From Alphaproteobacteria bacterium (GTDB lineage: Bacteria > Pseudomonadota > Alphaproteobacteria > Rs-D84): DNA of 64,000 nt. This document shows, piece by piece, positions 1 to 16,776 of this stretch. The position numbers and the translations under genes are program-made. The notes beneath the pieces were generated by a model that was not told the DNA's origin, searched no databases, and saw nothing but the letters and a program-made list of their open reading frames with translations. The stretch lies in NCBI GenBank assembly GCA_024402765.1, contig JAKSTC010000005.1, positions 1,517 through 65,516 of the forward strand, given 5' to 3'. Each line of letters opens with the position of its first letter. Positions within the stretch are counted from its first letter, which is position 1.

Positions 1-40
1 AAAAGCTACAGCTTGATAACACGGACTTACTTGTCTAAAA

Positions 41-283
41 TTAATCATCTGATTTACTTGATTCATCTTTGACCTCTTGTTTTCTATTTGATTCTACCGT
101 GTTTTTTTCGTTTTGCAGACCCTTATTTTCACTTTCTGCTTTTTTTTGCCTATATATTTCTAGTGCTCCTTCTGCAAAAAACTTTATTAAATCTTGTGTT
201 GCTTCATTTAATTCAACATCTGTAAATTGGTAATCTGGATACCAAGATTGAATCTCCTGTCGCAATATCTCAAAATTAGTCAT
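41..283 (-). CDS. hypothetical small acidic protein (80 aa)
   Basis: Intact ORF downstream of the helicase terminator. It is preceded by a conserved 54-nt block (329-382) and a 7-bp hairpin (307-327). No recognisable motif. Confidence 0.4.
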   Translation of the reverse strand: MTNFEILRQEIQSWYPDYQFTDVELNEATQDLIKFFAEGALEIYRQKKAESENKGLQNEKNTVESNRKQEVKDESSKSDD

Positions 284-328
284 CTTTTCAACTGTATGTT
301 TCCTACCGACATCGTTATCGGCGATGTC

Positions 329-382
329 ATTTAGAATCTAAACGAGAAAAAATTCAGATAAAAAGAATTTCTAAATAGTAAA
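329..382 (-). promoter_or_regulatory. conserved 54-nt intergenic block, copy A (ATTTAGAAT-N9-AAAAAATTC-N10-AATTTCTAAATAGTAAA)
   Basis: Three perfectly conserved sub-blocks (9, 9 and 17 nt) are shared with 9365-9418. The outer blocks are near-inverted repeats (ATTTAGAA / TTCTAAAT). It lies between a terminator and the next minus-strand gene. Confidence 0.5.
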
Positions 383-411
383 AAAAACATCCTGCCCAAA
401 GGGGCAAGATG
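380..411 (-). terminator. rho-independent terminator of the helicase-nuclease gene
   Basis: Minus-strand stem CATCTTGCCCC / GGGCAGGATG with a 3-nt loop, followed by T8. It starts 22 nt after the stop codon. Confidence 0.75.
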
Positions 412-432
412 TTAGATATGATATATTAGAAT

Positions 433-3400
433 TTACTTTAAAGATTCTATAAATCTTTTTAACTTCATCACTTCTTTATCTTTTTCTTCAAACCAATTTG
501 TTGACCAAATTCTATAGAATTCAAAACCGAAATGATTTTCTATCCATTTTTGCCTATGCATATCTGCTGCATATGCTTGGTCTGTATTATGATATGCTTT
601 TCCATCACACTCTAAAGCTACTTTATGACCATTTACTTCCAACATAAAATCGAGTCTATATCCACCAACAGGATATTGTAAATGTATGTGTTTTTTATCT
701 ATAAATTTAAGTAATTCATTATATACTTCTTCTTCAAAAACAGATTCTGTAAGCCCATCTGCCGTTGCTTGTGGTGAATCTTCAACTATCGTTGTTGCAC
801 TAATTCTTTGTCTATCATAACTATATTTACATAATTGGCTTAATATATCGCTCACAGTTTCCTTATCCCCATCAGAAACAGCTTTTGCATATGCAATATA
901 AGCATAAAATATAGCAGCTTTATTATTTTCATGAGATTTATCCAACAATTCTTTATATGTTGAATATGCTGATTTTGGAACAGATGTCACAACATACAAT
1001 TTGCTTTTTGCTCTTGTTATCAACACGTTTAACAATTTATAACCATTATCTGTTAATATAGACCCAAAACGTTGATAAAACTTTCCTGATTCATCCGGTC
1101 CAAATGTAGTAGATATTATGATGATATCTTTTTCGTCACCTTGAATATTTTCTAGATTTTTAACAAAAAGACCAGATTGTTGTAATTTTTCAAATTTATC
1201 TTTAAACGCTTCATCATTATATGATGTTTCATATAGTAATGCTTTTATGCAATTTCTTTGATGTATGTTAAATGTTGCTATTCCAACAGATGGCATTGTA
1301 CCGTCTGGATTCGGTTTTATTTCATTTAGAATAGAAATAACTTCAACAGCTTCTTTTGGATTAATATTACTTGCTTTTCCGGAACTATAAACCCCGTTTA
1401 CTTCTCTTATTTCTATTGGTCTATAATCTTTTCCAACAACCGGCAAAGGACATAAATTACCACCATAAAAAGCAGCATTAGAAAAGTTAATTAAAGCTGG
1501 GTGTTTTGAACGATAATGAAAATCTAAATACGACATATTTTTATATTTTAAACTTTCTGCAAAAACCAATAAAGATTCTGCATTAAGTTGTGCAGCTGTA
1601 CGCACATTTCCATCTGTGTTGCCGTCTGCATTGCCATCATTGTTTCCGTCTAAACCTGCTTGAAAATAATTAGAAGGTGGCATTTGGTGTTGGTCTCCAG
1701 CAATTATTTTATACTTACCCCTTATCATTGCTGTATAAACATCTTCTATCCTTAATTGACTGGCTTCGTCAAAAATAACCAAATCAAAAGAACCCTGCTC
1801 CAATTTAAATAATGTATTAGCCACAATCGGATTTACCAAAATAACTGGGAAAATTGTTGTGAAAGAAGCAAAATCTTTATCAATAATTTGTTTCAAAGAT
1901 AATCTTTTTCCAAACTTTTGATTTTTCTTTAATGCGAACAATGCCTTGAAGCCATATTTATCATCCAATCTTGTCATTGCATTTTGTATTCTTCTGTCCC
2001 ACATACTAAATGTACGTTTTAAATTTTGCTTCTCTAAATCATTATAGAGATTCTTTAACAAATTCAAATTTGTATCGTTTTTATGAAATCTTGTTGTTGT
2101 TTTTGATTCAAAATCCAGCAGCATATAATAATAATACGAAGCAAGAAACGCATCTTCCCAATCATCGACATCTATTGTCTCTAAGATATCCATTAAATTT
2201 TGATTGGTATTTTCAAATTTCACCCACGTATTATAATCTTCAATCTTATCCATGTTGTCTCTTAAATCAGACAACGAAGACAAGACTTCATTAAACATTA
2301 ATTTACATTCTTTAATATCAGAAAACTGTTGTAAATCATCATTAGTTAATGGAAACAGCTTAACAATATCGTGTTTTACAGAATCTATACGTTTTTTACA
2401 ATCAATTATATTTTTATACTTATTTTTGTCTTCTGAAAAACTCAAACTATTATCAACCAATGCTTGATATGATTCACCTAAATTTTTATATATTTTGCTT
2501 TGTTGGGATTTTACCTTCTTCTCTAAAGCAGAAGCATCTTTTAATAACGTTTTTAAATCAGTATATTCTTTCCACTTTTCTAATTGATTATCCAGTTCTT
2601 GATACTTGTTATACTGAGAAATATTTGAATGTATAGAAGCAACCAATTTTTTGATATTTATTAAAATATCATATGCTTCAGAAACATTCTTAGAAAATAA
2701 TCTGTTAAATATACCGAATTTTCCTATATCAAAATTCTCTCCCAACAAATCATTACCTTGCTTATATTTCTCTTTTATCAAAGAAATACTTTCTAAAACA
2801 TTACTTAAAAGTTGTGTCTTTTCGGTAGCTGTATCATCAAAATCTATTTTAACATCAAGAGATTCTGCTTTTTCATTAAACGCAGCAAATAATGTATTTA
2901 AAGATTCTATTTCGTTTGGCGTTAATTCATCTTTATATAACTTTTTTGCATCTTTATAAATTGGTTCTATTGACTCAAGATACGCTATCTTTTCTTCTAT
3001 ATACTTTGTATTAGACGTTATTGATACATCATTACATTCAAAATCGGATTTTTTTACGTACGCATTAAAATCTTCTATAGAAGATATCGAATCGTTTAGT
3101 TTTTTTTCTATTTCCTTTTTTTGTTTTATGTTAATTACGTCTTCAAAATCATCAAAGTCTATATATTTAAAACATGAACAATCTGTATCTTTTATGTAAG
3201 AAAATAGTAGTGCCCCCCTTTTGATAATATTTAAGTAGTCATTTAACGCATCTTCAGTAAACTTTAGCTTTAAGTTTCCGAAATCTTCTTTAGTTGATTC
3301 AAATTCTGGATTTTTAGAATATCTCAGATATTCACCAACTAAATCTTTCCAGTTCTTCCCTGCAAAAATGGGCTTACTGGACTCTTTATATGATGCATTA

Positions 3401-4734
3401 ACAGAATCTCTAAGTTCAATAAACTGATTATATTTTTGTTCAAAAACCCCTTCGTCAAAGCCATATAAATTACGTGAATAGCCGTCACCATCATATATTC
3501 TTCGTGCTTTTTCAACGATACTTCTTCGGTCTTTGACAACATCATCTACAACAGCACAAAAACAATCTAATTTTTTAGATTCTAAATTTTTTACAAGAAC
3601 ATCTAATGCCGTTTTCTTTTCACAAACGACAAGCGTTTTTGCTCCATTTGCTAGCGCATTTGAAATAATTGCAGAAATAGCTTGAGATTTCCCAGTTCCT
3701 GGAGGACCTTGAATAATTTTGAATTCATCAGAATTTAATGTATCTATTATTTCTCGTTGACTTGGGTCAACTTCAAAAGAAGTAGTCGTACTAGTTTGAA
3801 ATGGTTCGATTATCAATTCTTCTGAATTAAATTCATCTACATTGTCCAATAACTCTCTTGTAGCTTCAATTATAGGTTCTTTTTGCGACCTAAACAGCCC
3901 GAACACTCCACTCCATTGAATCCAAGGTGTCCCACTTGTTATTTTTTCTACTTTTTCTTTATTTTCTGGACACTTTTGTAAAGAAATGTTTGTTATAGCT
4001 TCTTTGATTCCTAAACCCTTATTCAGTTTATTAACATAAGCTATAATTTCATCTTCCGATAAAACACTATCATCTAATTCATCGTTCGTTAACTTCGGCA
4101 GAACTACCTTTTCATCGTTTTCTATATGTGATACCAATAATTCATTAACCTTAATAGGACTGTCTTCTGTTTTCGATATAAACCACTCATTTCTTCTGTT
4201 TGATTTATCTATATCTAAAGACCATATAAATATTGGAGCGATTATTATCTTTTTAGGGTCTTTTTTATCCGGTTTTACCAATAAAGGATATCCAAAGCCG
4301 AAATTCTTTAAACCCGTCTCCAAATACATATCTTCATTATCGGCGACAATATTATCTAACTTTTTTGAAACATCAAACAATTTGCTCTTTTCGTCTTCTG
4401 ACATTTTAGTCTGAGATTTTTCATCCCATGATATAGAAAATTTAAACTTTGGCTTTGTCAAAAGGTCTTCTAAAAAATTGTTAGCAAGAGTATTATTTTT
4501 GTTTCCTTCGCCAACAGATAAATCAAACAAATCTAACCTTGTATGATTTCTACCTGGTATAGCATTAAGATGTATAGACCTACCGTTTCCAATAGTTAAC
4601 TTACTAAGAAGTTTTTCTAAAAAATCCTTATCGAATTTAATTTGAGATATAATACTTGCACCGGTCTTTTTGATACTTTTCTTTGGTGTATCAACATAAT
4701 CTCTACTAGAAGGTTTTAAAAAAGTAAACGCCAT
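433..4734 (-). CDS. Upf1/DNA2-like SF1 helicase (DUF4011-type N-terminus, AAA_11/AAA_12 core) fused to a C-terminal DUF559/Vsr-like endonuclease domain, 1433 aa
   Basis: Walker A IIQGPPGTGKSQ, motif II VIFDEASQL, GDQHQMPP, HYRSKHPALINFSN, IQGDEKDIIIIS and NVLITRAKSKLYVV. A long K/E/D-rich, coiled-coil-like insert of several hundred residues sits between motifs I and II. C-terminus GGYRLDFML..ALECDGKAYH..RIWSTNW matches the DUF559/Vsr-like fold. Confidence 0.9.
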   Translation of the reverse strand: MAFTFLKPSSRDYVDTPKKSIKKTGASIISQIKFDKDFLEKLLSKLTIGNGRSIHLNAIPGRNHTRLDLFDLSVGEGNKNNTLANNFLEDLLTKPKFKFSISWDEKSQTKMSEDEKSKLFDVSKKLDNIVADNEDMYLETGLKNFGFGYPLLVKPDKKDPKKIIIAPIFIWSLDIDKSNRRNEWFISKTEDSPIKVNELLVSHIENDEKVVLPKLTNDELDDSVLSEDEIIAYVNKLNKGLGIKEAITNISLQKCPENKEKVEKITSGTPWIQWSGVFGLFRSQKEPIIEATRELLDNVDEFNSEELIIEPFQTSTTTSFEVDPSQREIIDTLNSDEFKIIQGPPGTGKSQAISAIISNALANGAKTLVVCEKKTALDVLVKNLESKKLDCFCAVVDDVVKDRRSIVEKARRIYDGDGYSRNLYGFDEGVFEQKYNQFIELRDSVNASYKESSKPIFAGKNWKDLVGEYLRYSKNPEFESTKEDFGNLKLKFTEDALNDYLNIIKRGALLFSYIKDTDCSCFKYIDFDDFEDVINIKQKKEIEKKLNDSISSIEDFNAYVKKSDFECNDVSITSNTKYIEEKIAYLESIEPIYKDAKKLYKDELTPNEIESLNTLFAAFNEKAESLDVKIDFDDTATEKTQLLSNVLESISLIKEKYKQGNDLLGENFDIGKFGIFNRLFSKNVSEAYDILINIKKLVASIHSNISQYNKYQELDNQLEKWKEYTDLKTLLKDASALEKKVKSQQSKIYKNLGESYQALVDNSLSFSEDKNKYKNIIDCKKRIDSVKHDIVKLFPLTNDDLQQFSDIKECKLMFNEVLSSLSDLRDNMDKIEDYNTWVKFENTNQNLMDILETIDVDDWEDAFLASYYYYMLLDFESKTTTRFHKNDTNLNLLKNLYNDLEKQNLKRTFSMWDRRIQNAMTRLDDKYGFKALFALKKNQKFGKRLSLKQIIDKDFASFTTIFPVILVNPIVANTLFKLEQGSFDLVIFDEASQLRIEDVYTAMIRGKYKIIAGDQHQMPPSNYFQAGLDGNNDGNADGNTDGNVRTAAQLNAESLLVFAESLKYKNMSYLDFHYRSKHPALINFSNAAFYGGNLCPLPVVGKDYRPIEIREVNGVYSSGKASNINPKEAVEVISILNEIKPNPDGTMPSVGIATFNIHQRNCIKALLYETSYNDEAFKDKFEKLQQSGLFVKNLENIQGDEKDIIIISTTFGPDESGKFYQRFGSILTDNGYKLLNVLITRAKSKLYVVTSVPKSAYSTYKELLDKSHENNKAAIFYAYIAYAKAVSDGDKETVSDILSQLCKYSYDRQRISATTIVEDSPQATADGLTESVFEEEVYNELLKFIDKKHIHLQYPVGGYRLDFMLEVNGHKVALECDGKAYHNTDQAYAADMHRQKWIENHFGFEFYRIWSTNWFEEKDKEVMKLKRFIESLK

Positions 4735-4811
4735 TGATATTTCTCACTTTATTTTGTCTTGTGAATAATATCATATATGCAAAAAAATCTCAATTTTTAT
4801 TTTCCAAAAAA

Positions 4812-5864
4812 TTATTTTTCGGGTTTAAAGTATTCAAAACCTATTGCATCAGAATATTCTTGTAATGTAGGAACAATTTTATAGTTGGAAAATAATATAG
4901 ATAAATCTAAGGCTTCTGGGATAATAAAACTTACTTCTCCATACCTATTTTCATATAATTGGGTATTATTATTAAATCGTTTATCAGGTCCACCTTTCTT
5001 ATTTACATATCTCCAAGTGGTTCTTACACACTCAGAATCTCTAGGTGTAAAATCCTCTATAAAAATGGTTGTTTTCCAGTTTATAGCAATGTCTTTCATA
5101 TTTAAAAAATACAATGAAAAAGGTGTATTTATTAAAATTCCATTTGGCAAAAACAATAATTCTTTAAATGTTGTTTTCATTTTAAAACACAACATGTTCG
5201 TTTTCATAAACAATGGCTTTGTTTTCTTTAAAGTCATACGATGAGTGGTTATAGTCGTCGAAGCCCCAGAAGTATATTTTGTATTACTATTATGATATGT
5301 TTTAGCACACTCATATATCCGTTCATTGTTGCTCAATAACTCAAACATCGATTCAAATATTTTGTGATTTTCTTTTGCAGTTTCGTCATCAAAACAAAAA
5401 GTCACTATGACTCTTTTGCTAAAATACCAGTAAATAGATAAACCAAAGAATAAAAGCACCCCTAGAAGACAGAAAGGATATATAAAACCAACTATCACAC
5501 TTACACCAAGCAAGGTTTTCCATAAAATCTGCATATTCTTATAGTGTCGTAATGCTGCCAAAAACTCTTTCCCATCCGTTGGTTCATAATCTTCCGGGGA
5601 TATCTGAGTTGTTTTTGCAAGATATTGTCCAGGAATTGAAGATTCTTTTTCTATATTTTGTTTTGGATGCGTTTTTCTTGTTCCTGAAGATTCTGTTATA
5701 TATGCCAATCCTGTTCCTGGAATAGATGCTGTTCTTCTGCTTCTACCATTAGCAAGTCTTGTCCATCTAAAACCAGGAAAACCAAAACTGTATCCTATGC
5801 CAGTTTTACTTAAATTGACTCTAAAACCACCAAAATTTACTGATTTTCTAAATCTAAATCCCAT
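4812..5864 (-). CDS. DUF4236 domain membrane protein with an unknown C-terminal domain (about 350 aa from the MGFRFRK start)
   Basis: N-terminus MGFRFRKSVNFGGFRVNLSKTGIGYSF...IPGTGLAY is the characteristic DUF4236 signature. A hydrophobic stretch follows (ILWKTLLGVSVIVGFIYPFCLLGVLLFFGLSIYWYF, about 2 TM). A 77-nt gap with no terminator separates it from the downstream helicase. The ORF track start at 5918 is probably too far upstream. Confidence 0.75.
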   Translation of the reverse strand: MGFRFRKSVNFGGFRVNLSKTGIGYSFGFPGFRWTRLANGRSRRTASIPGTGLAYITESSGTRKTHPKQNIEKESSIPGQYLAKTTQISPEDYEPTDGKEFLAALRHYKNMQILWKTLLGVSVIVGFIYPFCLLGVLLFFGLSIYWYFSKRVIVTFCFDDETAKENHKIFESMFELLSNNERIYECAKTYHNSNTKYTSGASTTITTHRMTLKKTKPLFMKTNMLCFKMKTTFKELLFLPNGILINTPFSLYFLNMKDIAINWKTTIFIEDFTPRDSECVRTTWRYVNKKGGPDKRFNNNTQLYENRYGEVSFIIPEALDLSILFSNYKIVPTLQEYSDAIGFEYFKPEK

Positions 5865-5931
5865 ATAAACACCTTTGCTTTTAATAAGAAGTATTTCATA
5901 AATCCAAACATCTTTCAAGGTTTAAAACATA

Positions 5932-5961
5932 TTGAATTTTCTATGAATTGTGGTATATAAT
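5932..5961 (+). promoter_or_regulatory. sigma70-like promoter (TTGAAT-N18-TATAAT) for the leader and PLD gene
   Basis: TTGAAT at 5932-5937 and TATAAT at 5956-5961, in the divergent intergenic region. Confidence 0.4.
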
Positions 5962-6022
5962 ATGTCTGAGATTCTGAAAAAGAGTCTCGTGATATAACAA
6001 AGTGCAAAGGTTTTAGACGACC

Positions 6023-6147
6023 TTACACGATACGCACTGTTTATATCCCGACAAGGTCGGGATGTCGTTGTCATAAGGTTTTACCAAAAGCAACGAAGTT
6101 TCGTGTAAACTGTCTAACTCCCGACCACCTTTAAAGTGGTCTTTTTT
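6023..6147 (+). promoter_or_regulatory. structured 5' leader / candidate riboswitch-like attenuator ending in an intrinsic terminator
   Basis: P1 6023-6030 TTACACGA pairs with 6101-6108 TCGTGTAA. Hairpin A 6045-6052 ATCCCGAC / 6056-6063 GTCGGGAT. Hairpin B 6065-6070 TCGTTG / 6091-6096 CAACGA. Terminator 6123-6128 GACCAC / 6136-6141 GTGGTC plus T6 (6142-6147). A second TCCCGAC at 6119-6125 overlaps the terminator arm and could pair with GTCGGGA instead. Confidence 0.4.
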
Positions 6148-6149
6148 AT

Positions 6150-6686
6150 ATGATAAAGACAGTTAAAATTTTTATTTTAAATATATCGATTTTGGCTTTA
6201 ACTGCCTGTGTTTCTATTAATTCGACACCTATTCCAGAAAATAAAATTTTTGATAATGATATAAAAATCTTTTTTACCCCAGGTATAGAGTGTGAAGATA
6301 ACATTATTGAGCAAATAAATAAATCGAATAAAATAGATATTGCCGTCTATTCTATTACAAATCCAGATATTACACATGCTATTATTACTGCATATAAACG
6401 TGGTGCAGATATTAGAGTTATTACAGATAGAACACAATCAAAAGGCAAAAACTCATTAGTAGATACAATTAAAAAGTCAGGTATTCCAACATTAACAAAT
6501 AAAAAACACAAAATAGAACATAATAAATTTGCTGTTTTTGATGATATTTATGTTGTCTCTGGGTCTTATAATTGGACTACAAATGCAAGTATGTATAATA
6601 GCGAAAATTGCATATTTTTTAAACAACCCAATAAAGAATATTCACACAGATTTGAACAATTATGGAACATCTATAACAACAATTAA
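6150..6686 (+). CDS. phospholipase D-family (single HKD) Nuc-like endonuclease, predicted lipoprotein or membrane-anchored
   Basis: HKD motif HNKFAVFDDIYVVSGSYNWT (HxKx4Dx6GSxN). N-terminal signal peptide with lipobox LTAC. The size (178 aa) is typical of Nuc-type PLD nucleases. Confidence 0.85.
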   Translation: MIKTVKIFILNISILALTACVSINSTPIPENKIFDNDIKIFFTPGIECEDNIIEQINKSNKIDIAVYSITNPDITHAIITAYKRGADIRVITDRTQSKGKNSLVDTIKKSGIPTLTNKKHKIEHNKFAVFDDIYVVSGSYNWTTNASMYNSENCIFFKQPNKEYSHRFEQLWNIYNNN

Positions 6687-6771
6687 AATTGGTTATAGGG
6701 GCAATAAAATCAAAATTTTATGATGTTTCTGGATTAAATATAGCTTATTTATGCATGTTTTATTGAACTTT

Positions 6772-6791
6772 GTGCCCCTAAGGGCACTTTT
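6772..6791 (+). terminator. intrinsic terminator after the PLD gene
   Basis: GTGCCC-CTAA-GGGCAC followed by TTTT. Confidence 0.6.
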
Positions 6792-6931
6792 ATACCATAT
6801 TGGCATAAAAACTATTAGCATCAAATAGTTAATTATTTAAAAAATGGCTGATTTCTGCGTTTTTTTGTGTGCAAAGCGGTTTTTTCACGGTAGGATTATA
6901 CCTGTAATGATAAAACAAAGAGGTATAAATC

Positions 6932-7210
6932 ATGACAAAAAACTTTAAAAATTGGTTAATTAACAATGGATATGCGTTGTTTACAGCAAATAATCAACCT
7001 TCCACAATATTTGACTATTTGACTGGTGTAAGATACGTGTGTCAATGGGAAAACAAGACAATAGACGAACTTGCTGAATCTATTTCTGAAATTTATCCTA
7101 AGTATTGTGATATGGGTGAATGTAGTGTAAAAGGACGTATGAAAAGTCGTGCTGTGAGATGTGGCTTGCGTCAGTTTAACAAGTTTATTATGGAATCAAG
7201 AGCTGCATAA
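6932..7210 (+). CDS. hypothetical protein (92 aa)
   Basis: Good RBS (AAAGAGG) 8 nt upstream. The stop overlaps the start of the next gene (TAATG), indicating an operon. Confidence 0.6.
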   Translation: MTKNFKNWLINNGYALFTANNQPSTIFDYLTGVRYVCQWENKTIDELAESISEIYPKYCDMGECSVKGRMKSRAVRCGLRQFNKFIMESRAA

Positions 7211-7536
7211 TGACTAAAATTGCTGAATTGAACGATAAGTTGCGTAAGAATATGTTTAACCCCGGTAAAAATAAAGTTGTTATTACATCCGGGGTAGCAA
7301 CTTTATCTCTTATTGATAGGATGTGCTTATTAAAGAAAATAATTGAATTTAATGACTTTAATAAAACAAACGATACATATAAAGAACATGATTTTGGTCG
7401 TATAGAACACAAAGGTATTAATTATTTCTTTAAGATAGATTATTACGATAATGATTTAATCTATGGTTCAGAAGATGCGTCAAATGAAGATATAACTACA
7501 AGAGTTTTAACAATTATGTGTGCAGATGAATATTAA
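7210..7536 (+). CDS. DUF3768 domain protein (plasmid/ICE-associated family)
   Basis: EHDFGRIEHKG..YFFKIDYYDNDLIYGSEDASNEDITTRVLTIMCADEY matches the characteristic DUF3768 C-terminal signature (HDFG...WKIDYYD...GSEDP...TRVLT...EY). Confidence 0.8.
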   Translation: MTKIAELNDKLRKNMFNPGKNKVVITSGVATLSLIDRMCLLKKIIEFNDFNKTNDTYKEHDFGRIEHKGINYFFKIDYYDNDLIYGSEDASNEDITTRVLTIMCADEY

Positions 7537-7590
7537 TAACTATTCAATTTTAATAGTTAATAAAAAATACCGCAAACAAAAGGATAAGAA

Positions 7591-7731
7591 ATGAATTGTA
7601 CATGTTTTAAATTAGTAGCAAACGGAATTACTTTACCTGAAATATATTTTAGATACGACCAAGCATGCCAAGCCAGACAAAAATTAAAAGATAATAATAT
7701 TGCGATGTCTGTAAATATTATTAATGCATAA
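7591..7731 (+). CDS. possible small protein (46 aa, MNCTCFKLVANGITLPEIYFRYDQACQARQKLKDNNIAMSVNIINA)
   Basis: Below the ORF-track cutoff. AAGGA RBS 6 nt upstream, same strand as the 6932-7536 operon, and a terminator directly downstream. Confidence 0.35.
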   Translation: MNCTCFKLVANGITLPEIYFRYDQACQARQKLKDNNIAMSVNIINA

Positions 7732-7737
7732 AAAAAG

Positions 7738-7765
7738 ACCACCAAGATAAAAATTGGTGGTTTTT
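7738..7765 (+). terminator. intrinsic terminator
   Basis: ACCACCAA-8 nt loop-TTGGTGGT followed by T5. Confidence 0.6.
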
Positions 7766-7831
7766 AATTACTTTTATTAGAATTGAGCGAGATTTGCTCC
7801 AAATTTATTTGATATATAAGTTATCAAAATT

Positions 7832-8377
7832 TTAATTTCTGTGATTCTGGACCTGATTCTGTGATTGAGAGATGTGTCCTTTTGGCTTAGACGACAAGTT
7901 AAATAAGATTTCAGATGTGATTATACGGTCTGAGTCAAAATGGTTCTTGATGTCTGCTTTGAATTCTTTGGACGTATACGAATTGACACCTGATGTAATA
8001 ATAGGCCGAACATCTATTGTCTCTTTGGTTAAATTGTACTTGTCCACAATATTATGAAAAATAAGTTGTACTTGAAAAAAATTAAAGGGGCAATCATAAA
8101 TTAAGATATGATAGTGCCAATGTGTTGATTTGCCTTTTTCTGCAACAGCAATGAAAGGAATATGTTTGCGATTCCAATGCCTGCCTAAAAGGTCTATTTC
8201 AAAGGCACGCATTATTTTTAATAATTTTTTATTTGTTGTATCTAAATTATTATTACGTAAATGCTTTGGAAATTGGATAGAAATAAAATATTGTGGATTA
8301 AAAGAACTAAACCAAGATATCAAAGATTGTTGAACATCAAAGGTATTATTTTTATTAAATATTAGATTAGTAGTCAT
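7832..8377 (-). CDS. HUH-motif Rep-like protein (rolling-circle initiator / YagK-YfjJ Inovirus Gp2-like), 181 aa
   Basis: HWHYHILIY contains a His-hydrophobic-His motif after a beta-strand-like IPFIAVAEKG. A candidate catalytic Tyr lies in NSYTSKEF. The family assignment is by eye only. Confidence 0.5.
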   Translation of the reverse strand: MTTNLIFNKNNTFDVQQSLISWFSSFNPQYFISIQFPKHLRNNNLDTTNKKLLKIMRAFEIDLLGRHWNRKHIPFIAVAEKGKSTHWHYHILIYDCPFNFFQVQLIFHNIVDKYNLTKETIDVRPIITSGVNSYTSKEFKADIKNHFDSDRIITSEILFNLSSKPKGHISQSQNQVQNHRN

Positions 8378-8580
8378 TTTTATTATCTTTATTTTTTATG
8401 ATTGTTTGATTTAAGATGTATAAGATTACAGAGCAACTTTTATTAACTCTGGCCTTATTTTTTTCAGATATATTCTGCTTTGTGGCGATTTACAGCCCAC
8501 AACCTTCAAATATACAACTCAAACAATAGAACGATTTTTTTAAAAACTTTTTTCAAAAAAAATTCTAATTTGTTATTTTT

Positions 8581-8613
8581 TATAAACAAAGACCGCCATA
8601 ACAGACGGTCTTT
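8581..8613 (-). terminator. hairpin terminator after the 223-aa paralog gene
   Basis: AAAGACCG-10 nt loop-CGGTCTTT, with a T-rich tract on the minus strand. Confidence 0.5.
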
Positions 8614-8629
8614 AGATTTTATTAATAAA

Positions 8630-9301
8630 TTAAAAACCTACAGATTGCCATTTTGATAACTGTTTAATTTTTCTAACTTTTGAACGCAATTTGGACACTC
8701 TTTGTGCGGCAATAAGTTTACATGGATATCTATTTAAATGTTCTATAAAAATAGTCCTCTCAAGTTGATAAGGAACTTTTAAAGCTGGGACAACTTTATT
8801 ATAATTTTCAGTTTTACAATATTCAAACAATATACTAAAACCTGCGTCTTTATATTCTTTTAAAGCTTCATCCATTAACTTTTTATATTGTCTGCTACTT
8901 GCACAATATGCACGATATTCTTCCTTATTAATAAATTCCCTTTCATCAAGCACCAATAATGCTACATGCAATAATGATTTGATAGTTGGTAATGATTTTT
9001 TATATTCTTTTTCAAATTCAAGAAAAATCTGTGCTAATTTTTCTTGTGCAAACATTGGAACATTACTAAAATCTATATTATTAAATAAATAACAATCTGA
9101 TTTGTTCATCCGTTCTTGAATTTCAACTAGAGATTCTTGTTTGTTTAGTTCAATGGTCTTTGATGCACCTTTCTTTTGTATCTCTGGATCTTCTAAATTT
9201 TCCCACATAAAAGATAAATCATCTGCAATAATATGCTTTTCAACGTCCGCTTCAGGACACAGTGATGGTGATTTATAATTAATTACATATTCTTTTTCCA
9301 T
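8630..9301 (-). CDS. hypothetical protein, paralog of 9452-9892 (223 aa from the MEKEYVINYK start)
   Basis: The internal ATG at 9301 has a AAGGGG RBS 6 nt upstream. The C-terminal ~115 aa align with the neighbouring 146-aa protein (SLPTIKSLLHVALLVL vs SLPTKESLVYAYMVL; ALKEYKDAGFSILFEY vs AYDEFYDSGLHVKFDD; IEHLNRYPCKLI vs LDYVLRHPELI). Confidence 0.65.
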   Translation of the reverse strand: MEKEYVINYKSPSLCPEADVEKHIIADDLSFMWENLEDPEIQKKGASKTIELNKQESLVEIQERMNKSDCYLFNNIDFSNVPMFAQEKLAQIFLEFEKEYKKSLPTIKSLLHVALLVLDEREFINKEEYRAYCASSRQYKKLMDEALKEYKDAGFSILFEYCKTENYNKVVPALKVPYQLERTIFIEHLNRYPCKLIAAQRVSKLRSKVRKIKQLSKWQSVGF

Positions 9302-9364
9302 TTTATACCCCTTTATATAATAAGGTTTGTTAAAGTTTCGGGCTTTTTCACCCGTGCTACGTTG

Positions 9365-9418
9365 ATTTAGAATGCGTTTCACAAAAAATTCTTTTGAAAA
9401 AAATTTCTAAATAGTAAA
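9365..9418 (-). promoter_or_regulatory. conserved 54-nt intergenic block, copy B
   Basis: Matches 329-382 at 41 of 54 positions, with three perfect sub-blocks, in the same position relative to a terminator and a downstream gene. Confidence 0.5.
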
Positions 9419-9420
9419 TA

Positions 9421-9447
9421 AAAATATATGCCTCAAAAAATGAGGCA
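9421..9447 (-). terminator. hairpin terminator after the 146-aa gene
   Basis: TGCCTCA-AAAAA-TGAGGCA, with a T-rich tract on the minus strand. Confidence 0.55.
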
Positions 9448-9451
9448 CATA

Positions 9452-9892
9452 TTACCCACATAAAAAACGGTGTTCTAGTTCTTTTATTTCAAACATACCT
9501 TCAATTAGTTCTGGGTGACGCAACACATAATCAAGATAAACGATTTTATTTATATTATATCGTTCATCTTTGGCTAATGGAGCAATCATATCATCAAATT
9601 TAACATGGAGCCCAGAGTCATAAAATTCATCATAAGCATCTTTAAGAAATTCTCGTTCAACACTTCCAAAATAATCAATAATATTATTTATAAAATCGGT
9701 TCTTAATCCTTTAGCATATAAAACCATATATGCATAAACCAAAGATTCCTTAGTTGGTAAAGATGCCTTATATTTAGATATACATTTGGTCAAAATCTCA
9801 AAAAATTTCATTTGGATTTCTTTGTCTGTAATATATGGTGGAAATTCAAACATACGCAAATCTTCAACTTGTTTTTTATAAACTTTTTTCAT
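9452..9892 (-). CDS. hypothetical protein, paralog of 8630-9301 (146 aa)
   Basis: Intact ORF. See the paralog alignment under 8630-9301. Confidence 0.65.
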   Translation of the reverse strand: MKKVYKKQVEDLRMFEFPPYITDKEIQMKFFEILTKCISKYKASLPTKESLVYAYMVLYAKGLRTDFINNIIDYFGSVEREFLKDAYDEFYDSGLHVKFDDMIAPLAKDERYNINKIVYLDYVLRHPELIEGMFEIKELEHRFLCG

Positions 9893-9923
9893 TTTTTATC
9901 CTTTTGTTAATTTGTTAATTATT

Positions 9924-9952
9924 AAAAAAACATTGCGCCCCGAAGGGCGCAA
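9924..9952 (-). terminator. GC-rich tetraloop hairpin plus T7 between the methyltransferase and the 146-aa gene (terminator or attenuator)
   Basis: TTGCGCCC-CGAA-GGGCGCAA followed on the minus strand by T7. Only about 30 nt remain before the next start codon. Confidence 0.5.
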
Positions 9953-9957
9953 AGTAG

Positions 9958-11709
9958 CTAGCACTGCTTTGGCAGCATTTGAATTAGCCTTTTTACCAGT
10001 TTTGGCATAAAGGCTTCGCCGATAACTTCACGAATCAATCTATCATCGGCCCATTCAGGTATCGGATAATTATCAGGTAAACCAGATACACGCAATAATT
10101 CTAATATAGTCAAATAGCGTGCATCTGAATATGTACCATCAGACAACGGACGCCCTGGATGTATTGTCGTATATCCTGATACAATATTTGTTTGTGTGAC
10201 AATCGTATTACATGGCTTTTCCCAAGATTTACGTTTAAAACTTGTTCTAAACCATGCATTACTAAGTTTACCATTAACATTTTTTGGTTTATATTCTGCC
10301 TGATTATCATGTGCAGAACATCCTGTTGGAGTATGTTTTAATACTTCAACTTGACATCTTGGTAAAGGGTCTGCAACATGATACGGTATACCGCTGTCTT
10401 CACCGGCTTCAATTGATGGTAAATCACCGATACATTCCCACAACATTGGTCTTCGTTTATCTGGATAAGGAAATTCCCAAAGTCCATTTTTAGAAGCCGT
10501 AATTATTGCCCTTTTTCTACATTGACAAGTTCCGTAATCAGCAGCATCCAAAATACCAATATTTACTATATATCCCAAAGCTTCTAATTCGCCTTTGATA
10601 TATTCAGCAATATTTTGATATTTTGTACCAGATAATACATTTGGACAAGCATTAAGAAATTCTGGCACATTTTCAATCATAACAAATTGATTTACGTCAT
10701 CCGTTGCTTTAATAAACTCTAATGTACGTAAAAATAAAAGTGCTTCTGAAGAATTATAATCTTTGTTTCCAGCTGGACTAAAAGGTTGACATGGTGGACT
10801 TGCCAAAACCATTTTACAACCTTTTTCATGATATGCCGCAATCAGTTTATTGAAGATATCATTATCATAAAAATCACCTTCAATCATATTACAATGCGGA
10901 TAAACTTCCTTATACCATGCTACACGTTCTGGTAAAATTTCATTTGCAACAGCATTTATCACATTTAACTCATGTAAGTAATATTCACCAATACCAACAT
11001 TTGCAAATAATTGCGTGTAATATAAAGGATTAGATTCAGTATATTTTGCACAAAAAGCAGAATCTGGATAAGTTGCTACTTTACCAATATAATCAACATT
11101 TGTCGATTGGTGGTCTTCCGGTCTAGTTTTACGTTTCATACGTATCGCCCAGTTTCTAGACACAATATTAGTGGTTTCACGTGCCATGTTTTTTGCTCTC
11201 TCAACACATTCTTCATCTAAACTATTAATTTCACGTGCTTGTTTTGGTGTTAAACCCATTTCAGCAATTAAATCTGCTTTGGTCTTTACACTTTTGTTTC
11301 TACGACCTTGTGACTTTGGTAATTCTTTTAATTGCTTTGATATTTCAAGTTCAGCATCCAACAAAAGTTCTGCATATCGTTGCGTACTTGTAAAGATATT
11401 TTGATACATACCTTTTGGTAAATTAGGTTTCTTTAATAAAGATTCACCTAATTTAACCGCTGTCTTTTGCACCGTAATAAATTCAATTAATTCATTAGGG
11501 TCTGTTGGGATAGCAACATTAGTATTTGCATTTACAAATAAAGCAGGCAATTTTATATCTGCCTGCTCTGATATGATTTCTACTTCTGTTGTTGGTTCTT
11601 TTCTTTCATCTTTATTTATTGTTTCGACATTTAAAGATGTTTCTATATCTTGAATTACTTCATTTAAATTTGATTCTTCAAGACCTAATTTTTTTGCAAA
11701 TATATCCAT
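9958..11709 (-). CDS. DNA (cytosine-5) methyltransferase with an N-terminal extension of about 240 aa containing an HTH-like segment; no adjacent restriction enzyme recognised
   Basis: Motif IV ASPPCQPFSPAG, motif VI MIENVPEF, motif VIII QCRKRAII, motif I-like LFANVGIGEY and motif X-like GEAFMP. The start at 11709 (MDIFAKK) has a AAGGAG RBS. The N-terminal segment KADLIAEMGLTPKQAREINSL resembles a phage/plasmid HTH module. Confidence 0.85.
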   Translation of the reverse strand: MDIFAKKLGLEESNLNEVIQDIETSLNVETINKDERKEPTTEVEIISEQADIKLPALFVNANTNVAIPTDPNELIEFITVQKTAVKLGESLLKKPNLPKGMYQNIFTSTQRYAELLLDAELEISKQLKELPKSQGRRNKSVKTKADLIAEMGLTPKQAREINSLDEECVERAKNMARETTNIVSRNWAIRMKRKTRPEDHQSTNVDYIGKVATYPDSAFCAKYTESNPLYYTQLFANVGIGEYYLHELNVINAVANEILPERVAWYKEVYPHCNMIEGDFYDNDIFNKLIAAYHEKGCKMVLASPPCQPFSPAGNKDYNSSEALLFLRTLEFIKATDDVNQFVMIENVPEFLNACPNVLSGTKYQNIAEYIKGELEALGYIVNIGILDAADYGTCQCRKRAIITASKNGLWEFPYPDKRRPMLWECIGDLPSIEAGEDSGIPYHVADPLPRCQVEVLKHTPTGCSAHDNQAEYKPKNVNGKLSNAWFRTSFKRKSWEKPCNTIVTQTNIVSGYTTIHPGRPLSDGTYSDARYLTILELLRVSGLPDNYPIPEWADDRLIREVIGEAFMPKLVKRLIQMLPKQC

Positions 11710-11736
11710 TTTTAACTCCTTTATGTGTTTTTGGAT

Positions 11737-11778
11737 AAAAAAAAACACCCTTGGCCAAAAGGCCAGAGGGTGCTTTTT
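11737..11778. terminator. strong bidirectional hairpin (A9 - 11-bp stem - T5)
   Basis: CACCCTTGGCC-AAAA-GGCCAGAGGGTG (one bulge), flanked by an A-run and a T-run. Confidence 0.5.
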
Positions 11779-12393
11779 ATGATTTAAATTAGTTTTAGAA
11801 AGTTTATTGGGATTTATTCTATGTCATTTGTTTCTCCTTTGGTTGTTTGGTTTTTAAAAGAAAAAAGCAAAAAAATCCCCATTGTATAAAAAAAGGCACA
11901 AAAAAGTGCCATTATATCACAAGTTATCTACAATGTTTTATTGGGAAATTAGTTTTTGGAAAAAAAAGTAAAAAAAAATAGGGCATAAAAAACCCAACAT
12001 AAAAATGCATCAGCACTCAACACTATTATATTAAAACATATTTAATGAATGTTTTTTATATAATGACTTAATATATACTAAGCTAAATTAATATTTAACT
12101 TTTGTATATGTTATTATCATATCATCAAAAATATGTTTTGTAAAGCAAAAAAAATTATTTTACTGAATTTGATTGTTTTACATATATAAAAAAGTCCCTA
12201 AAGCGCGTTTTTTTGCGTTTTACAGACTTTTAACATCTTGCCCATAAGGACACAAACTTATTAAAAAAATTATTTAATGTAGATTCGGTAAACCTAACTT
12301 ATCTTTAAAAAGTTGTATTTCATGACCGATAGCTATTAAATCCATATAGTAATCAGTTCGAGAACTGCACACCGAGCACAACCAGTTTTAAAT

Positions 12394-12420
12394 AAAAAAC
12401 GGCCATTTTGGTCGTTTTTT
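12394..12420. terminator. bidirectional terminator-like hairpin
   Basis: A6-ACGGCC-ATTTT-GGTCGT-T6. Confidence 0.4.
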
Positions 12421-12660
12421 ATTTAAAATTTGTATGTGGTTCGTGGTTTGTGACCTGCAACGCAGTTGCCGGTTCACAACAAGTAGATTTGATAAGTGAA
12501 ACGCAATCAAATCGTTACGGTTGCCGCGTAGCCGGCACATTTTGTGCCGTGCGAGCGAATTCCATTTCCCTGCTCTTTTATTATTTCTATAACCAAGATA
12601 TACAACCGTTCGTTTAAGAGCGGTTTTTGTTTGGATTTCTAATACTTTCACAGAGTTCGA
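12421..12660. other. GC-enriched, highly structured non-coding block (candidate sRNA, oriT/sso-like site or decayed gene)
   Basis: Nested hairpin 12448-12479 (TTGTGACC-T-GCAAC-GCA-GTTGC-C-GGTTCACAA), hairpin 12533-12549 (CGGCACA-TTT-TGTGCCG) and hairpin 12604-12625 followed by T5. The overlapping ORFs on both strands have no recognisable features. Confidence 0.3.
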
Positions 12661-12709
12661 AAGTCGTATTTTCAAAAATTGCTATTTTTCTAGCATTTTC
12701 GTGATTTTG

Positions 12710-12718
12710 TGATATAAT
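12710..12718 (+). promoter_or_regulatory. extended -10 promoter element (TGaTATAAT) for the 143-aa ORF
   Basis: TG at 12710-12711 and TATAAT at 12713-12718, about 55 nt upstream of the ATG at 12773. Confidence 0.45.
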
Positions 12719-12772
12719 CCACCAAGTCAATTAAGAATTTTAGTGCAAAGTTATTACAAAGGTGAATAAAAA

Positions 12773-13204: not shown

Positions 13205-13250
13205 TTGAATATCGTGAAGCATAACAAACAACAAAACCAGTTTTAATTTC

Positions 13251-16556: not shown

Positions 16557-16572
16557 TTCTCTCTCTTGTAAC

Positions 16573-16776
16573 TGTTAATAATTATACAGATTTCAACAAT
16601 TTTTAACAAGCATAAAAAATATTCATACAAAATTGTTAAATATGTTGAAAAACTACTATCTTTTTTAACAGTTGAAAAATATTATTATTTTTTAACAATT
16701 TTACAAAAAACCTCACAAATTAAGGATTTTTTTGTTAAAAACTTGTTAAGTTTTTGTAAAATTTCGATTTTTAACA
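16573..16776. promoter_or_regulatory. cluster of eight TTAACA/TGTTAA motifs (extended consensus TTTTTAACAAtTT) in the virB3/rpmJ divergent intergenic region
   Basis: Motifs start at 16573, 16603, 16634, 16665, 16692, 16733, 16744 and 16771. One pair forms TTAA-N7-TTAAG (16735-16750), a CtrA-box-like spacing. Confidence 0.4.

What the first reader, a model, noticed from the sequence alone, without database searches (positions are those of the whole stretch)
433..6686. Giant Upf1-like helicase-DUF559 nuclease with an upstream DUF4236 membrane protein and a divergent PLD nuclease: candidate uncharacterised defence module, Mokosh-like but non-canonical
Seen in sequence:
- A 1433-aa ORF combines a DUF4011-like N-terminus and a complete SF1B helicase motif set (GPPGTGKS, FDEASQ, GDQHQMPP, ITRAK).
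- An unusually long K/E/D-rich insert of several hundred residues sits between motifs I and II.
- The C-terminus is a DUF559/Vsr-like endonuclease domain.
- 77 nt upstream on the same strand, with no terminator in between, is a gene encoding a DUF4236 N-domain, about 2 TM helices and a ~190-aa C-terminal domain I cannot assign.
- Divergently transcribed from the same intergenic region is a 178-aa single-HKD PLD nuclease with an N-terminal hydrophobic anchor or lipobox.

Established knowledge:
- The Mokosh anti-phage family pairs a COG1112/Upf1-like helicase with a PLD nuclease.
- DUF4011-helicase-DUF559 fusions are widespread but functionally uncharacterised.
- Nuc-type PLD nucleases with signal peptides also occur on conjugative plasmids such as pKM101.

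Inference: the three genes may form one nucleic-acid-targeting, membrane-associated system. A helicase carrying its own Vsr-like nuclease, plus a membrane partner and a PLD, is not an arrangement I recognise as described. The region is much more AT-rich than the core genes, which fits horizontally acquired defence DNA.
Basis: partly seen in the sequence, partly recalled or inferred. Interest (0 to 1): 0.7.

Follow-up and report, generated by a model that had tools for sequence, protein, structure and literature searches.

The report
Helicase-nuclease defence cargo with membrane partner
A swappable two-gene cassette in an integrated mobile element carries a stand-alone helicase-nuclease from a known candidate anti-phage family and an uncharacterised membrane protein that sometimes accompanies such helicases; the neighbouring PLD nuclease belongs to the element's fixed backbone, so the proposed three-gene system does not hold.

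Summary
The three ORFs and their domains are real. The three-gene system is not.

- **Cassette.** A sister element (L178) shows that window 418-5924 (helicase plus DUF4236 gene) is swappable. L178 carries a type II R-M system in that slot.
- **PLD.** The PLD (6150-6686) lies in the conserved backbone with DUF3768, Rep, a C5 methylase and VirB4. It is a lipobox-bearing, Nuc-type exported nuclease typical of conjugative plasmids.
- **Helicase.** It is a divergent member of a large stand-alone family (DUF4011, SF1B helicase, MTES_1575/Vsr-fold nuclease). It relates to PADLOC candidate PDC-S37 and the validated Hhe, but scores below NCBIfam's Hhe and ProA cut-offs. It is not Mokosh. Relatives at 91%, 54% and 51% identity lack both neighbours.
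- **DUF4236 gene.** It travels separately; its 79% homologue sits beside a SNase. It encodes a membrane-hairpin protein from a large uncharacterised family.
- **What is new.** That family recurrently lies next to PDC-S37-type helicase-nucleases (about five independent origins) and is fused elsewhere to FtsK, AAA+, SAP and TerB domains. A facultative membrane-adaptor role is plausible but unproven.

Interest is moderate. The helicase is a new variant of a known kind.

The parts
1..417 (-). Left backbone flank of the mobile element. It holds the first codons of a serine-recombinase gene running off the window and an 80-aa ORF (41-283).
   Evidence: 89% nt identity to L178 5472-5888. There a 518-aa Resolvase/Recombinase gene (3981-5537) and an 80-aa ORF (5512-5754) occupy the same positions.
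386..413 (-). Terminator-like hairpin (12-bp stem followed by a T-run) just downstream of the helicase stop codon. It lies in the shared backbone at the left cassette junction.
418..5924 (-). Variable two-gene cargo cassette (helicase-nuclease plus DUF4236 membrane protein) occupying a defence slot of the element.
   Evidence: This segment has no counterpart in L178. L178 carries two C5 methylases and a type II REase (5889-9774) between the same flanks.
433..4734 (-). Stand-alone helicase-nuclease of 1433 aa. It has a DUF4011-like N-region, an SF1B (Upf1-like) helicase with a 635-aa insert between motifs I and II, and a C-terminal MTES_1575/Vsr-fold nuclease.
   Evidence: Pfam. PADLOC PDC-S37 1.1e-134 and Hhe 1.8e-69. 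NCBIfam ProA 441 bits and Hhe 289 bits, both below cut-off. More than 4000 homologues, with helicase and nuclease motifs invariant. 88% nt identity to L172, limited to the gene and 64 nt upstream.
4735..4811 (-). 77-nt spacer. It contains no terminator-like site and holds a promoter-like match, TTGAGA-17-TATTAT (4793-4765). The recombination breakpoint between the two separately inherited genes lies at about 4798-4807.
   Evidence: Promoter-like matches are not above chance for the region as a whole.
4812..5864 (-). DUF4236-TM-C protein of 350 aa. It has a basic N-terminal DUF4236 beta-domain, a membrane helical hairpin (about 99-149) and a conserved beta-rich C-domain with a TWxYVNKxGGPDKRFxNN motif.
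   Evidence: Pfam 59 bits. Family alignment. AF2 models with pLDDT 87 and 92. 2194 clusters at E<=1e-30. 80% nt identity to L007, limited to this gene.
5925..16883 (.). Conserved element backbone: PLD, a 92-aa ORF, DUF3768 (7210-7536), a Rep ORF2/G2P-like gene (7832-8377), a C5 methylase (9958-11748) and VirB4/TrbE-like (13858-16266). VirB3 follows VirB4 in L178.
   Evidence: Collinear with L178 at 93%, 83% and 71% nt identity. Pfam.
6150..6686 (+). Single-HKD PLD-family nuclease with signal peptide and lipobox (LTAC). It is a backbone gene of the element and not part of the cassette.
   Evidence: PLDc_2 85 bits. The 95%-identical copy in L178 has the same backbone but different cargo. At least 5000 plasmid records match, 84% of them conjugative. 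A lipobox occurs in at least 89 of 120 homologues and HKD in 118 of 120.

Best explanation
Window 418-5924 is a 5.5-kb cargo cassette in a variable defence slot of an integrated mobile element. The slot lies between the element's serine-recombinase end and its fixed backbone (PLD lipoprotein nuclease, DUF3768, Rep, C5 methylase, VirB4).

The large gene is a self-sufficient helicase-nuclease of the DUF4011 / SF1B / Vsr-fold type. It is a divergent clade related to the PADLOC candidate PDC-S37 and to the validated single-gene system Hhe. Inferred mechanism: the Upf1-like motor loads on and tracks along foreign or aberrant DNA, and the C-terminal MTES_1575 nuclease cuts it, restricting phages or plasmids.

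The upstream gene encodes an inner-membrane hairpin protein whose DUF4236 N-domain and conserved C-domain are both inferred to face the cytoplasm. It is a separately mobile module. It is most likely an optional accessory that tethers or localises DNA motors at the membrane, or acts as an independent membrane-level exclusion factor. It is not an obligate subunit.

The PLD is an exported Nuc-type nuclease of the element backbone and does not work with the helicase.
For: Shown:
- The cassette boundaries are sharp, and the same slot holds a type II R-M system in L178, while the PLD and backbone stay put.
- The helicase family has more than 4000 hits. Walker A, DEAxQ, motif III, QGDE, TRAK and the nuclease residues (E1375, D1377, K1379 and others) are invariant or nearly so.
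- The best PADLOC model is PDC-S37 (1e-134), followed by Hhe.
- No neighbour recurs in the window's helicase clade.
- Relatives at 91%, 54% and 51% identity sit alone in other mobile elements.
- Hhe is used as a functional defence system in phage screens.
- The helicase and the DUF4236 gene each match other contigs at 88% and 80% nt identity over one gene only.
- DUF4236-TM-C genes lie directly beside PDC-S37-type helicase-nucleases in the L094/L102/L109 clade, L098 and P. aeruginosa L182. A DUF4236+TPR protein does the same in L069. All are on the same strand, with gaps from -20 to +58 nt.
- The module is fused to FtsK translocase, FtsK-gamma plus AAA+, SAP and TerB-N/C domains.
- The PLD has a conserved lipobox and matches conjugative-plasmid Nuc-type genes.

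Inferred: the nuclease mechanism, the defence phenotype, the membrane topology and the adaptor role.
Against: - No experiment exists for this clade. I found no paper on PDC-S37.
- The window's helicase scores only 449 bits on the PDC-S37 model, against 586-1347 for the DUF4236-linked helicases tested. It falls far below NCBIfam's Hhe and ProA cut-offs.
- The DUF4236 link is a minority pattern: 1 of 80 helicase loci, about 6 of 60 DUF4236 lineages, and 0 of 80 viral loci.
- In the window the pair looks recently assembled, with a 77-nt spacer and a possible separate promoter. The two genes may simply be neighbours.
- The C-domain fold has no significant structural match.
Confidence: 0.6

Rival explanations
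1. The helicase and the DUF4236 protein are functionally unrelated cargo genes that happen to sit side by side in a defence or accessory slot. The DUF4236-TM-C protein would be an independent membrane factor, for example a prophage-type superinfection-exclusion protein.
For: - Each gene is found alone at high identity elsewhere.
- The breakpoint lies in the spacer, and a promoter-like site travels with the helicase.
- Most DUF4236-TM-C lineages have other neighbours or none.
- In gut prophages the gene lies between an HTH gene and the integrase.
- 0 of 80 viral loci carry a helicase.
Against: - Same-strand immediate adjacency to PDC-S37-type helicases recurs in about five independent lineages across phyla.
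- In one clade the pair co-diverges: DUF4236 47-72% and helicase 69-89% identity.
- The module is fused to other DNA motors.
Confidence: 0.3
2. One reading: the DUF4236 protein, the helicase-nuclease and the divergent PLD form one three-gene, Mokosh-like, membrane-associated defence system.
For: - The three genes are physically close and share an intergenic region.
- The PLD has weak similarity to DrmC and to the MkoC C-terminus.
Against: - The PLD is retained with the backbone when the cassette is swapped.
- The PLD is an exported lipoprotein.
- It is of the Nuc type found on conjugative plasmids.
- 0 of 80 helicase loci and 1 of 91 DUF4236 loci have a PLD nearby.
- A 73%-identical PLD sits alone among ribosomal genes.
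- The MkoA and MkoB matches are marginal.
Confidence: 0.03
3. The helicase-nuclease serves the mobile element or the host (replication, recombination, repair or element maintenance) rather than defence.
For: - Upf1-like SF1B helicases and Vsr-fold nucleases also act in repair.
- A large DUF4011 gene is a conserved core gene flanking a hotspot in P. aeruginosa.
- There are no experimental data for this clade.
Against: - The gene occupies a slot that is interchangeable with an R-M system.
- Its relatives are patchily distributed in mobile elements across distant phyla, including CPR bacteria and an Asgard archaeon.
- The nearest named families are all anti-phage.
Confidence: 0.07

Closest known systems
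PDC-S37 (PADLOC-DB candidate single-gene defence protein, model PDLC05009)
   Same: It is the best-scoring defence model (1.1e-134). It shares the helicase core, the long insert and the C-terminal MTES_1575 nuclease, and it is likewise a single-gene unit in mobile DNA.
   Different: The window protein scores 449 bits and aligns only from profile position 292. The DUF4236-linked helicases tested score 586-1347 bits, the best over nearly the full profile. It shares 26-34% identity with them. I found no paper describing PDC-S37.
Hhe (single-gene DUF4011-helicase-Vsr endonuclease anti-phage system; NCBIfam NF042953, PADLOC PDLC02194)
   Same: The architecture logic is the same: DUF4011, an SF1 helicase and a Vsr-fold nuclease in one polypeptide. 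Hhe is used as a working defence system in phage screens.
   Different: The score is 289 bits against a 2000-bit equivalog cut-off, and only the C-terminal helicase part aligns well. The window protein is shorter than the Hhe profiles (1433 aa against 1797-1911 positions) and has no DUF3320 match.
ProA (NCBIfam NF058533, 'anti-phage protein ProA')
   Same: It matches the helicase region (residues 314-1253) at 441 bits.
   Different: The score is far below the 1500-bit cut-off. I could not find the source publication.
Mokosh (MkoA helicase plus MkoB PLD, or the fused MkoC)
   Same: It also has an SF1 Upf1-like helicase, and a PLD gene is nearby here.
   Different: MkoA and MkoC match only the generic helicase core (87-103 bits), and MkoB matches the PLD at 21 bits. 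The PLD here is divergently transcribed, exported, and part of the element backbone.
Nuc / NucT-type small PLD nucleases of conjugative plasmids and Helicobacter
   Same: The PLD is about 175 aa, has a single HKD motif and an N-terminal export signal, and sits in an element with VirB4. At least 5000 plasmid records match, 84% of them conjugative.
   Different: It shares only about 31-38% identity with plasmid copies. It scores 26-50 bits against NucT equivalog cut-offs of 211-351. It carries a lipobox. From my own knowledge, pKM101 Nuc has a plain signal peptide.
Shango (TerB protein plus ATPase plus helicase) and similar membrane-anchor-plus-motor defence systems
   Same: This is an analogy for the possible DUF4236 role: a membrane-associated non-enzymatic protein encoded next to a helicase or ATPase. 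Some DUF4236-TM-C proteins are themselves fused to TerB-N and TerB-C.
   Different: There is no sequence relationship between the window proteins and Shango components, and no PADLOC hit for the DUF4236 protein. The pairing here is facultative.

Membership tests
PDC-S37 (PADLOC candidate) | Full-length match to HMM PDLC05009 | tested here: inconclusive
   E = 1.1e-134 and 449 bits, but only profile positions 292-1341 of 1550 and protein residues 320-1432 align. The DUF4236-linked helicases tested score 586-1347 bits. PADLOC's own coverage thresholds were not available.
PDC-S37 (PADLOC candidate) | Architecture of DUF4011, SF1 helicase and MTES_1575 nuclease | tested here: met
   Pfam gives DUF4011 (26 bits, above the 22.2 cut-off), AAA_11, AAA_12 and MTES_1575 (75 bits).
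Hhe | NCBIfam equivalog NF042953, at least 2000 bits | tested here: not met
   289 bits.
ProA | NCBIfam equivalog NF058533, at least 1500 bits | tested here: not met
   441 bits.
Mokosh type I | MkoA-type helicase | tested here: not met
   MkoA PDLC03920 scores 103 bits, matching only residues 979-1262 against the end of the profile. PDC-S37 scores far higher.
Mokosh type I | MkoB PLD partner encoded with the helicase and conserved with it | tested here: not met
   MkoB scores 21 bits. The PLD is backbone and not co-inherited with the helicase. 0 of 80 helicase loci have a PLD.
Nuc-type exported PLD nuclease | Single HxKxxxxD motif in a protein of about 150-180 aa | tested here: met
   HNKFAVFD at residue 124. 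PLDc_2 scores 85 bits.
Nuc-type exported PLD nuclease | N-terminal export signal | tested here: met
   A hydrophobic N-terminus with lipobox LTAC, conserved in at least 89 of 120 homologues. No dedicated signal-peptide predictor was available.
Nuc-type exported PLD nuclease | Nuclease activity, periplasmic or outer-membrane location | not testable with these tools
   Needs biochemistry and fractionation.
NucT (NCBIfam equivalogs NF010490-NF010493) | Score above the equivalog cut-off (211-351 bits) | tested here: not met
   26-50 bits.
DUF4236 (Pfam PF14020) | Gathering score of 27 bits | tested here: met
   59 bits, residues 21-73 of the TTG-start ORF.
Anti-phage defence system (any) | Protection against phage or plasmid when expressed | not testable with these tools
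   Needs cloning and challenge assays.

The most novel reading that the evidence does not exclude
DUF4236-TM-C proteins are a large, undescribed class of membrane adaptors or sensors. They would recruit DNA motors to the inner membrane. The motors include PDC-S37/Hhe-type helicase-nucleases, multi-AAA+ ATPases, Schlafen-type helicases and, by fusion, FtsK translocases. The window's cassette would then be a two-component, membrane-tethered variant of what PADLOC lists as a single-gene candidate system, acting on DNA as it enters the cell.
Probability: 0.3. Interest if true: 0.6.

Novelty: new variant of a known kind. Interest (0 to 1): 0.4.

Why it matters
- **Annotation.** Proximity and a shared intergenic region are not evidence of a system. 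A single sister element was enough to separate backbone from cargo here. The locus should not be filed as Mokosh-like or as a three-gene system.
- **Defence biology.** The window adds a divergent clade, widespread in CPR bacteria, Bacteroidota and an Asgard archaeon, to the untested PDC-S37/Hhe-like helicase-nucleases.
- **An unstudied family.** The DUF4236-TM-C family has at least 2194 50%-identity clusters and essentially no literature. It is a recurrent companion of DNA motors in mobile elements. If it proves to be a membrane adaptor or an exclusion factor, it would explain part of the unannotated content of defence islands and prophage lysogeny modules.

Tried and rejected
- **Megablast against plasmids.** The whole locus gave no match.
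- **Fold assignment of the DUF4236 protein.**
  - Full-length and C-domain-only AF2 models are confident (pLDDT 87 and 92).
  - Foldseek against the PDB gave nothing significant (best E about 0.1). Only weak PH, PTB and FERM-F3-like hits recurred, so I do not claim a fold.
  - BFVD returned only other DUF4236 proteins.
  - A PDB sequence search returned nothing.
- **PADLOC on the DUF4236 protein.** No model matched.
- **Literature.** There is nothing on PDC-S37, one incidental mention of DUF4236, and no source for ProA.
- **Mokosh reading.** Rejected on HMM scores and synteny.
- **Obligate helicase partner.** I considered that the DUF4236 gene is one and rejected it. 79 of 80 helicase loci lack it, and so do the three closest helicase relatives looked up, at 91%, 54% and 51% identity.
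- **Pure-chance pairing.** I considered that the pairing is chance alone and consider it unlikely, given repeated same-strand adjacency in independent lineages. The statistic is rough, and L094, L102 and L109 are one clade.
- **L164.** I first counted it as adjacent, but the helicase there is 693 nt and two small ORFs away.
- **P. aeruginosa hotspot.** I could not verify whether the 'small hypothetical gene plus large DUF4011 gene' at the cDHS1 flank is the same pair as in L182.
Full report
**1. Observation**

The three ORFs are present as described.

*Helicase (433-4734, minus strand, 1433 aa)*
- It carries GPPGTGKS, FDEASQ, GDQHQMPP and ITRAK at residues 343, 988, 1013 and 1239.
- Pfam gives a weak DUF4011 match, AAA_11, AAA_12 and a C-terminal MTES_1575 restriction-endonuclease-like domain.
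- The 635 residues between motifs I and II are only slightly richer in K/E/D than the rest of the protein (29.1% against 24.6%).
- Full-length relatives align over 98% of the protein, so the insert is a family trait.

*DUF4236 gene*
- It most likely starts at the ATG at 5864, giving 350 aa. Nearly all homologues begin MGFRFRK.
- It ends 77 nt upstream of the helicase start. No terminator-like site lies in that spacer, but a promoter-like match does.

*PLD (6150-6686, plus strand)*
- It has one HKD motif and an N-terminal signal with lipobox LTAC.

*Composition*
- The first 16.5 kb are 30.5% GC, against 37-41% for the housekeeping regions.

**2. The decisive comparison**

A contig carrying a 95%-identical PLD (L178) is collinear with the window on both sides of the finding.

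| Window segment | L178 segment | Identity |
|---|---|---|
| 1-417 | 5472-5888 | 89% |
| 5925-8568 | 9775-12408 | 93% |
| onward through the C5 methylase | collinear | 83% |
| VirB4 region | collinear | 71% |

- Between these flanks the window has the helicase and the DUF4236 gene (418-5924).
- L178 instead has two C5 methylases and a 416-aa protein that matches a type II restriction enzyme model.
- The junctions are sharp. The left one lies just after the terminator hairpin that follows the helicase stop. The right one lies upstream of the PLD's promoter-like site.
- The helicase and DUF4236 gene therefore form a swappable cargo cassette in a defence slot.
- The PLD belongs to the element backbone, together with a 92-aa ORF, DUF3768, a Rep ORF2/G2P-like gene, a C5 methylase and VirB4 (with VirB3 after it in L178). 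In L178 the left flank continues into a serine recombinase.

**3. The PLD**

- It matches at least 5000 plasmid records, and 84% of the counted ones are conjugative.
- A lipobox is present in at least 89 of 120 homologues and the HKD motif in 118 of 120.
- A 73%-identical copy sits alone among ribosomal-protein genes.
- None of 80 helicase-family loci has a PLD within the flanks, and only 1 of 91 DUF4236-family loci does.
- It is therefore a Nuc-type exported nuclease that travels with the element, not a partner of the cytoplasmic helicase.

**4. The helicase**

*Family matches*
- PADLOC's best model is the candidate PDC-S37 (1.1e-134, 449 bits, profile 292-1341 of 1550). Hhe, MkoA and MkoC follow.
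- NCBIfam gives ProA at 441 bits (cut-off 1500) and Hhe at 289 bits (cut-off 2000).
- The protein is thus related to these families but is a member of neither equivalog.

*Family size and conservation*
- The family is large, with more than 4000 hits. Relatives at 40-57% identity occur in CPR bacteria, Bacteroidota and an Asgard archaeon.
- The helicase motifs and the nuclease residues are conserved.
- Only the Upf1-like cores of IGHMBP2 and Sen1 have solved structures with detectable similarity.

*Stand-alone status*
- No neighbour recurs in the window's clade.
- The 91%, 54% and 51% relatives sit alone in other mobile elements, next to serine recombinases with DUF2924, an integrase fragment or BstA-like genes.
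- The 88% nucleotide match to L172 covers the gene and only 64 nt upstream. It stops before the DUF4236 gene.
- Hhe is used as a working defence system in a phage-gene screen. I found no paper on PDC-S37.

*Inference*
- I infer a single-protein mechanism in which the motor tracks on foreign DNA and the Vsr-fold nuclease cuts. This is not shown.

**5. The DUF4236 protein**

*Family and structure*
- It belongs to a full-length family of about 340 aa with a fixed architecture. The family has 2194 50%-identity clusters at E<=1e-30.
- AF2 models are confident: pLDDT 87 for the whole protein and 92 for the C-domain. They show an N-terminal beta-sheet, a helical hairpin at about 99-149, and a beta-rich C-domain capped by a helix.
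- The N-domain is strongly basic (10 K+R against 1 D+E), and both flanks of the hairpin are positive. I therefore infer that both domains face the cytoplasm.
- No solved structure matches significantly. PH-superfold hits recur only at E of about 0.1-1.
- PADLOC has no model for it.
- The literature search found one incidental mention of DUF4236.

*Separate mobility*
- The 79% homologue is followed by a SNase gene.
- The 76% homologue is followed by a 73-aa ORF.
- The 46% homologues stand alone.
- The 80% nucleotide match to L007 covers this gene only.

**6. A recurrent but facultative link**

*Helicase partners*
- Among 91 DUF4236-family loci (60 lineages at 85% identity), a DUF4011-helicase-MTES_1575 protein lies directly next to the gene on the same strand in these cases:
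  - L094, L102/L103 and L109, downstream with gaps of 13-14 nt.
  - L098, upstream with gap 0.
  - L120, as a fragment.
- In L164 such a helicase lies 693 nt away.
- The helicases tested with PADLOC (L094, L109, L098, L164) match PDC-S37 at 586-1347 bits.
- An annotated P. aeruginosa conjugative plasmid adds a 2221-aa PDC-S37/Hhe-type protein followed at once by a full-length DUF4236-TM-C ORF.
- A Dehalococcoidaceae MAG has a DUF4236+TPR protein just upstream of a PDC-S37 helicase.

*Independence of these cases*
- On a neighbour-joining tree these cases fall at several separate places.
- In the L094/L102/L109 clade the pair co-diverges, with DUF4236 at 47-72% and the helicase at 69-89% identity.
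- The window's copy groups with the SNase-linked and solitary copies.
- Seven of eight cases are immediate neighbours and all eight share a strand.
- The statistic is rough, and three of the cases are one clade.

*Other partners and fusions*
- Other tight partners are multi-AAA+ ATPases (one next to BREX), a Schlafen-type helicase, PP2C with NADAR or MBL, K+ channels, and OB-fold proteins.
- Longer family members are fused to a complete FtsK translocase, FtsK-gamma plus AAA+, SAP, TerB-N/TerB-C, PDZ or TPR domains.

*Limits of the link*
- Only 1 of 80 helicase loci has any DUF4236 neighbour.
- 0 of 80 viral-contig loci (23 lineages) pair the gene with a helicase.
- In many gut-metagenome loci the gene sits between an HTH gene and an integrase.

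**7. Interpretation**

- The best-supported reading is a stand-alone PDC-S37/Hhe-like helicase-nuclease carried as cargo.
- It is accompanied by a separately mobile membrane protein that has a real but facultative affinity for such motors.
- The adaptor idea has a documented analogue in Shango, where a TerB-like protein is encoded with an ATPase and a helicase.
- The main rival is that the two genes are independent neighbours, with the DUF4236 protein acting alone at the membrane.
- The three-gene, Mokosh-like model is not supported.

**8. Novelty and score**

- The helicase is a divergent member of a known candidate kind.
- The PLD is ordinary.
- The new element is the comparative evidence tying the uncharacterised DUF4236-TM-C family to helicase-nucleases and other DNA motors.
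- I rate the locus a new variant of a known kind, with interest 0.4.

Noticed in passing
window 5925-16883; L178 9775-20537: The PLD, a 92-aa ORF, DUF3768, a Rep ORF2/G2P-like gene, two unannotated ORFs, a 596-aa C5 methylase and VirB4 form a conserved element backbone shared with L178, where VirB3 follows VirB4. In L178 it is bounded on the left by a serine recombinase next to DUF374, lpxK and lpxC. The element's right end and its att sites were not defined.
   Followed up: partly
L174 1-13913: A 51%-identical helicase homologue lies in a variable region next to the same housekeeping flank (LpxC, LpxK, DUF374) as L178. This suggests a lineage-wide insertion hotspot beside lpxK that repeatedly acquires this helicase family.
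   Followed up: no
window 9958-11748 (-): The C5 cytosine methylase has an N-terminal extension of about 245 aa with no Pfam match. It is an orphan methylase in the backbone, a possible anti-restriction or element-protective function.
   Followed up: no
L109 3895-12458: Here the DUF4236-TM-C gene is flanked on both sides by helicase-nucleases. A 1012-aa MkoC-like AAA_11/AAA_12 plus MTES_1575 protein lies upstream, and a 1439-aa PDC-S37 lies downstream.
   Followed up: partly
L133, L137, L138, L160 (about 6260-9040); L113, L122: A PP2C-like phosphatase gene lies upstream of the DUF4236-TM-C gene in five lineages (L113, L133, L137, L138, L160), with gaps from -23 to 7 nt. Four of these also have a same-strand gene just downstream: NADAR in L133, an MBL-related protein in L138 and L160, and an unannotated 293-aa ORF in L137. 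L122 has an MBL-fold hydrolase downstream. This looks like an undescribed module.
   Followed up: partly
L143-L171 and L187-L259 (gene at about 7001-8026): In many human-gut metagenome loci the DUF4236-TM-C gene sits between a small HTH_3 protein and a tyrosine integrase. Many viral-contig loci carry close relatives, but their neighbours were not examined. This position is typical of lysogenic-conversion or superinfection-exclusion genes.
   Followed up: partly
L003/L004 1-13135 (Ruminiclostridium herbifermentans CP061336): A 491-aa DUF4236-TM-C protein is followed after 17 nt by a 1213-aa multi-AAA+ protein, in a region that also carries BREX genes (PglX-like methylase, PglZ, BrxL). L100 has the same pairing with a 1483-aa AAA+ protein that is IetA-like by PADLOC.
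   Followed up: partly
L064, L066, L071, L072, L083, L085, L086: In a distant helicase clade whose matches start at about residue 320, a 393-503-aa ORF lies upstream and overlaps the helicase ORF (by 4 nt in four of the seven loci). It may be a split-off N-terminal region encoded as a separate gene.
   Followed up: no
L172 14321-17975: The 91%-identical helicase is followed by an NTF2-like gene. An HSDR_N_2 gene and an ADP-ribosylglycohydrolase, Macro, ADP-ribosylglycohydrolase trio lie on the opposite strand, in a prophage-like region with a terminase and a ParB-methylase.
   Followed up: no
window 6123-6141 (+): A terminator-like hairpin with a T-run ends 9 nt before the PLD start codon. It could be a regulatory element or the terminator of an unannotated upstream transcript.
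   Followed up: no
window 43171-51093: The second AT-rich stretch (26-37% GC) is an ordinary surface-polysaccharide cluster. It encodes GT8 and GT2 glycosyltransferases, NAD-dependent epimerases/dehydratases, a nucleotidyl transferase and an amine oxidoreductase.
   Followed up: yes
L182 (P. aeruginosa pHPA0875-2, NZ_CP137496) 232-10569: A PDC-S37/Hhe-type giant helicase, the DUF4236-TM-C ORF (only partly annotated in the record) and a GajB-like UvrD helicase lie in a row. [quoted passage not shown] This may be the same pair.
   Followed up: partly
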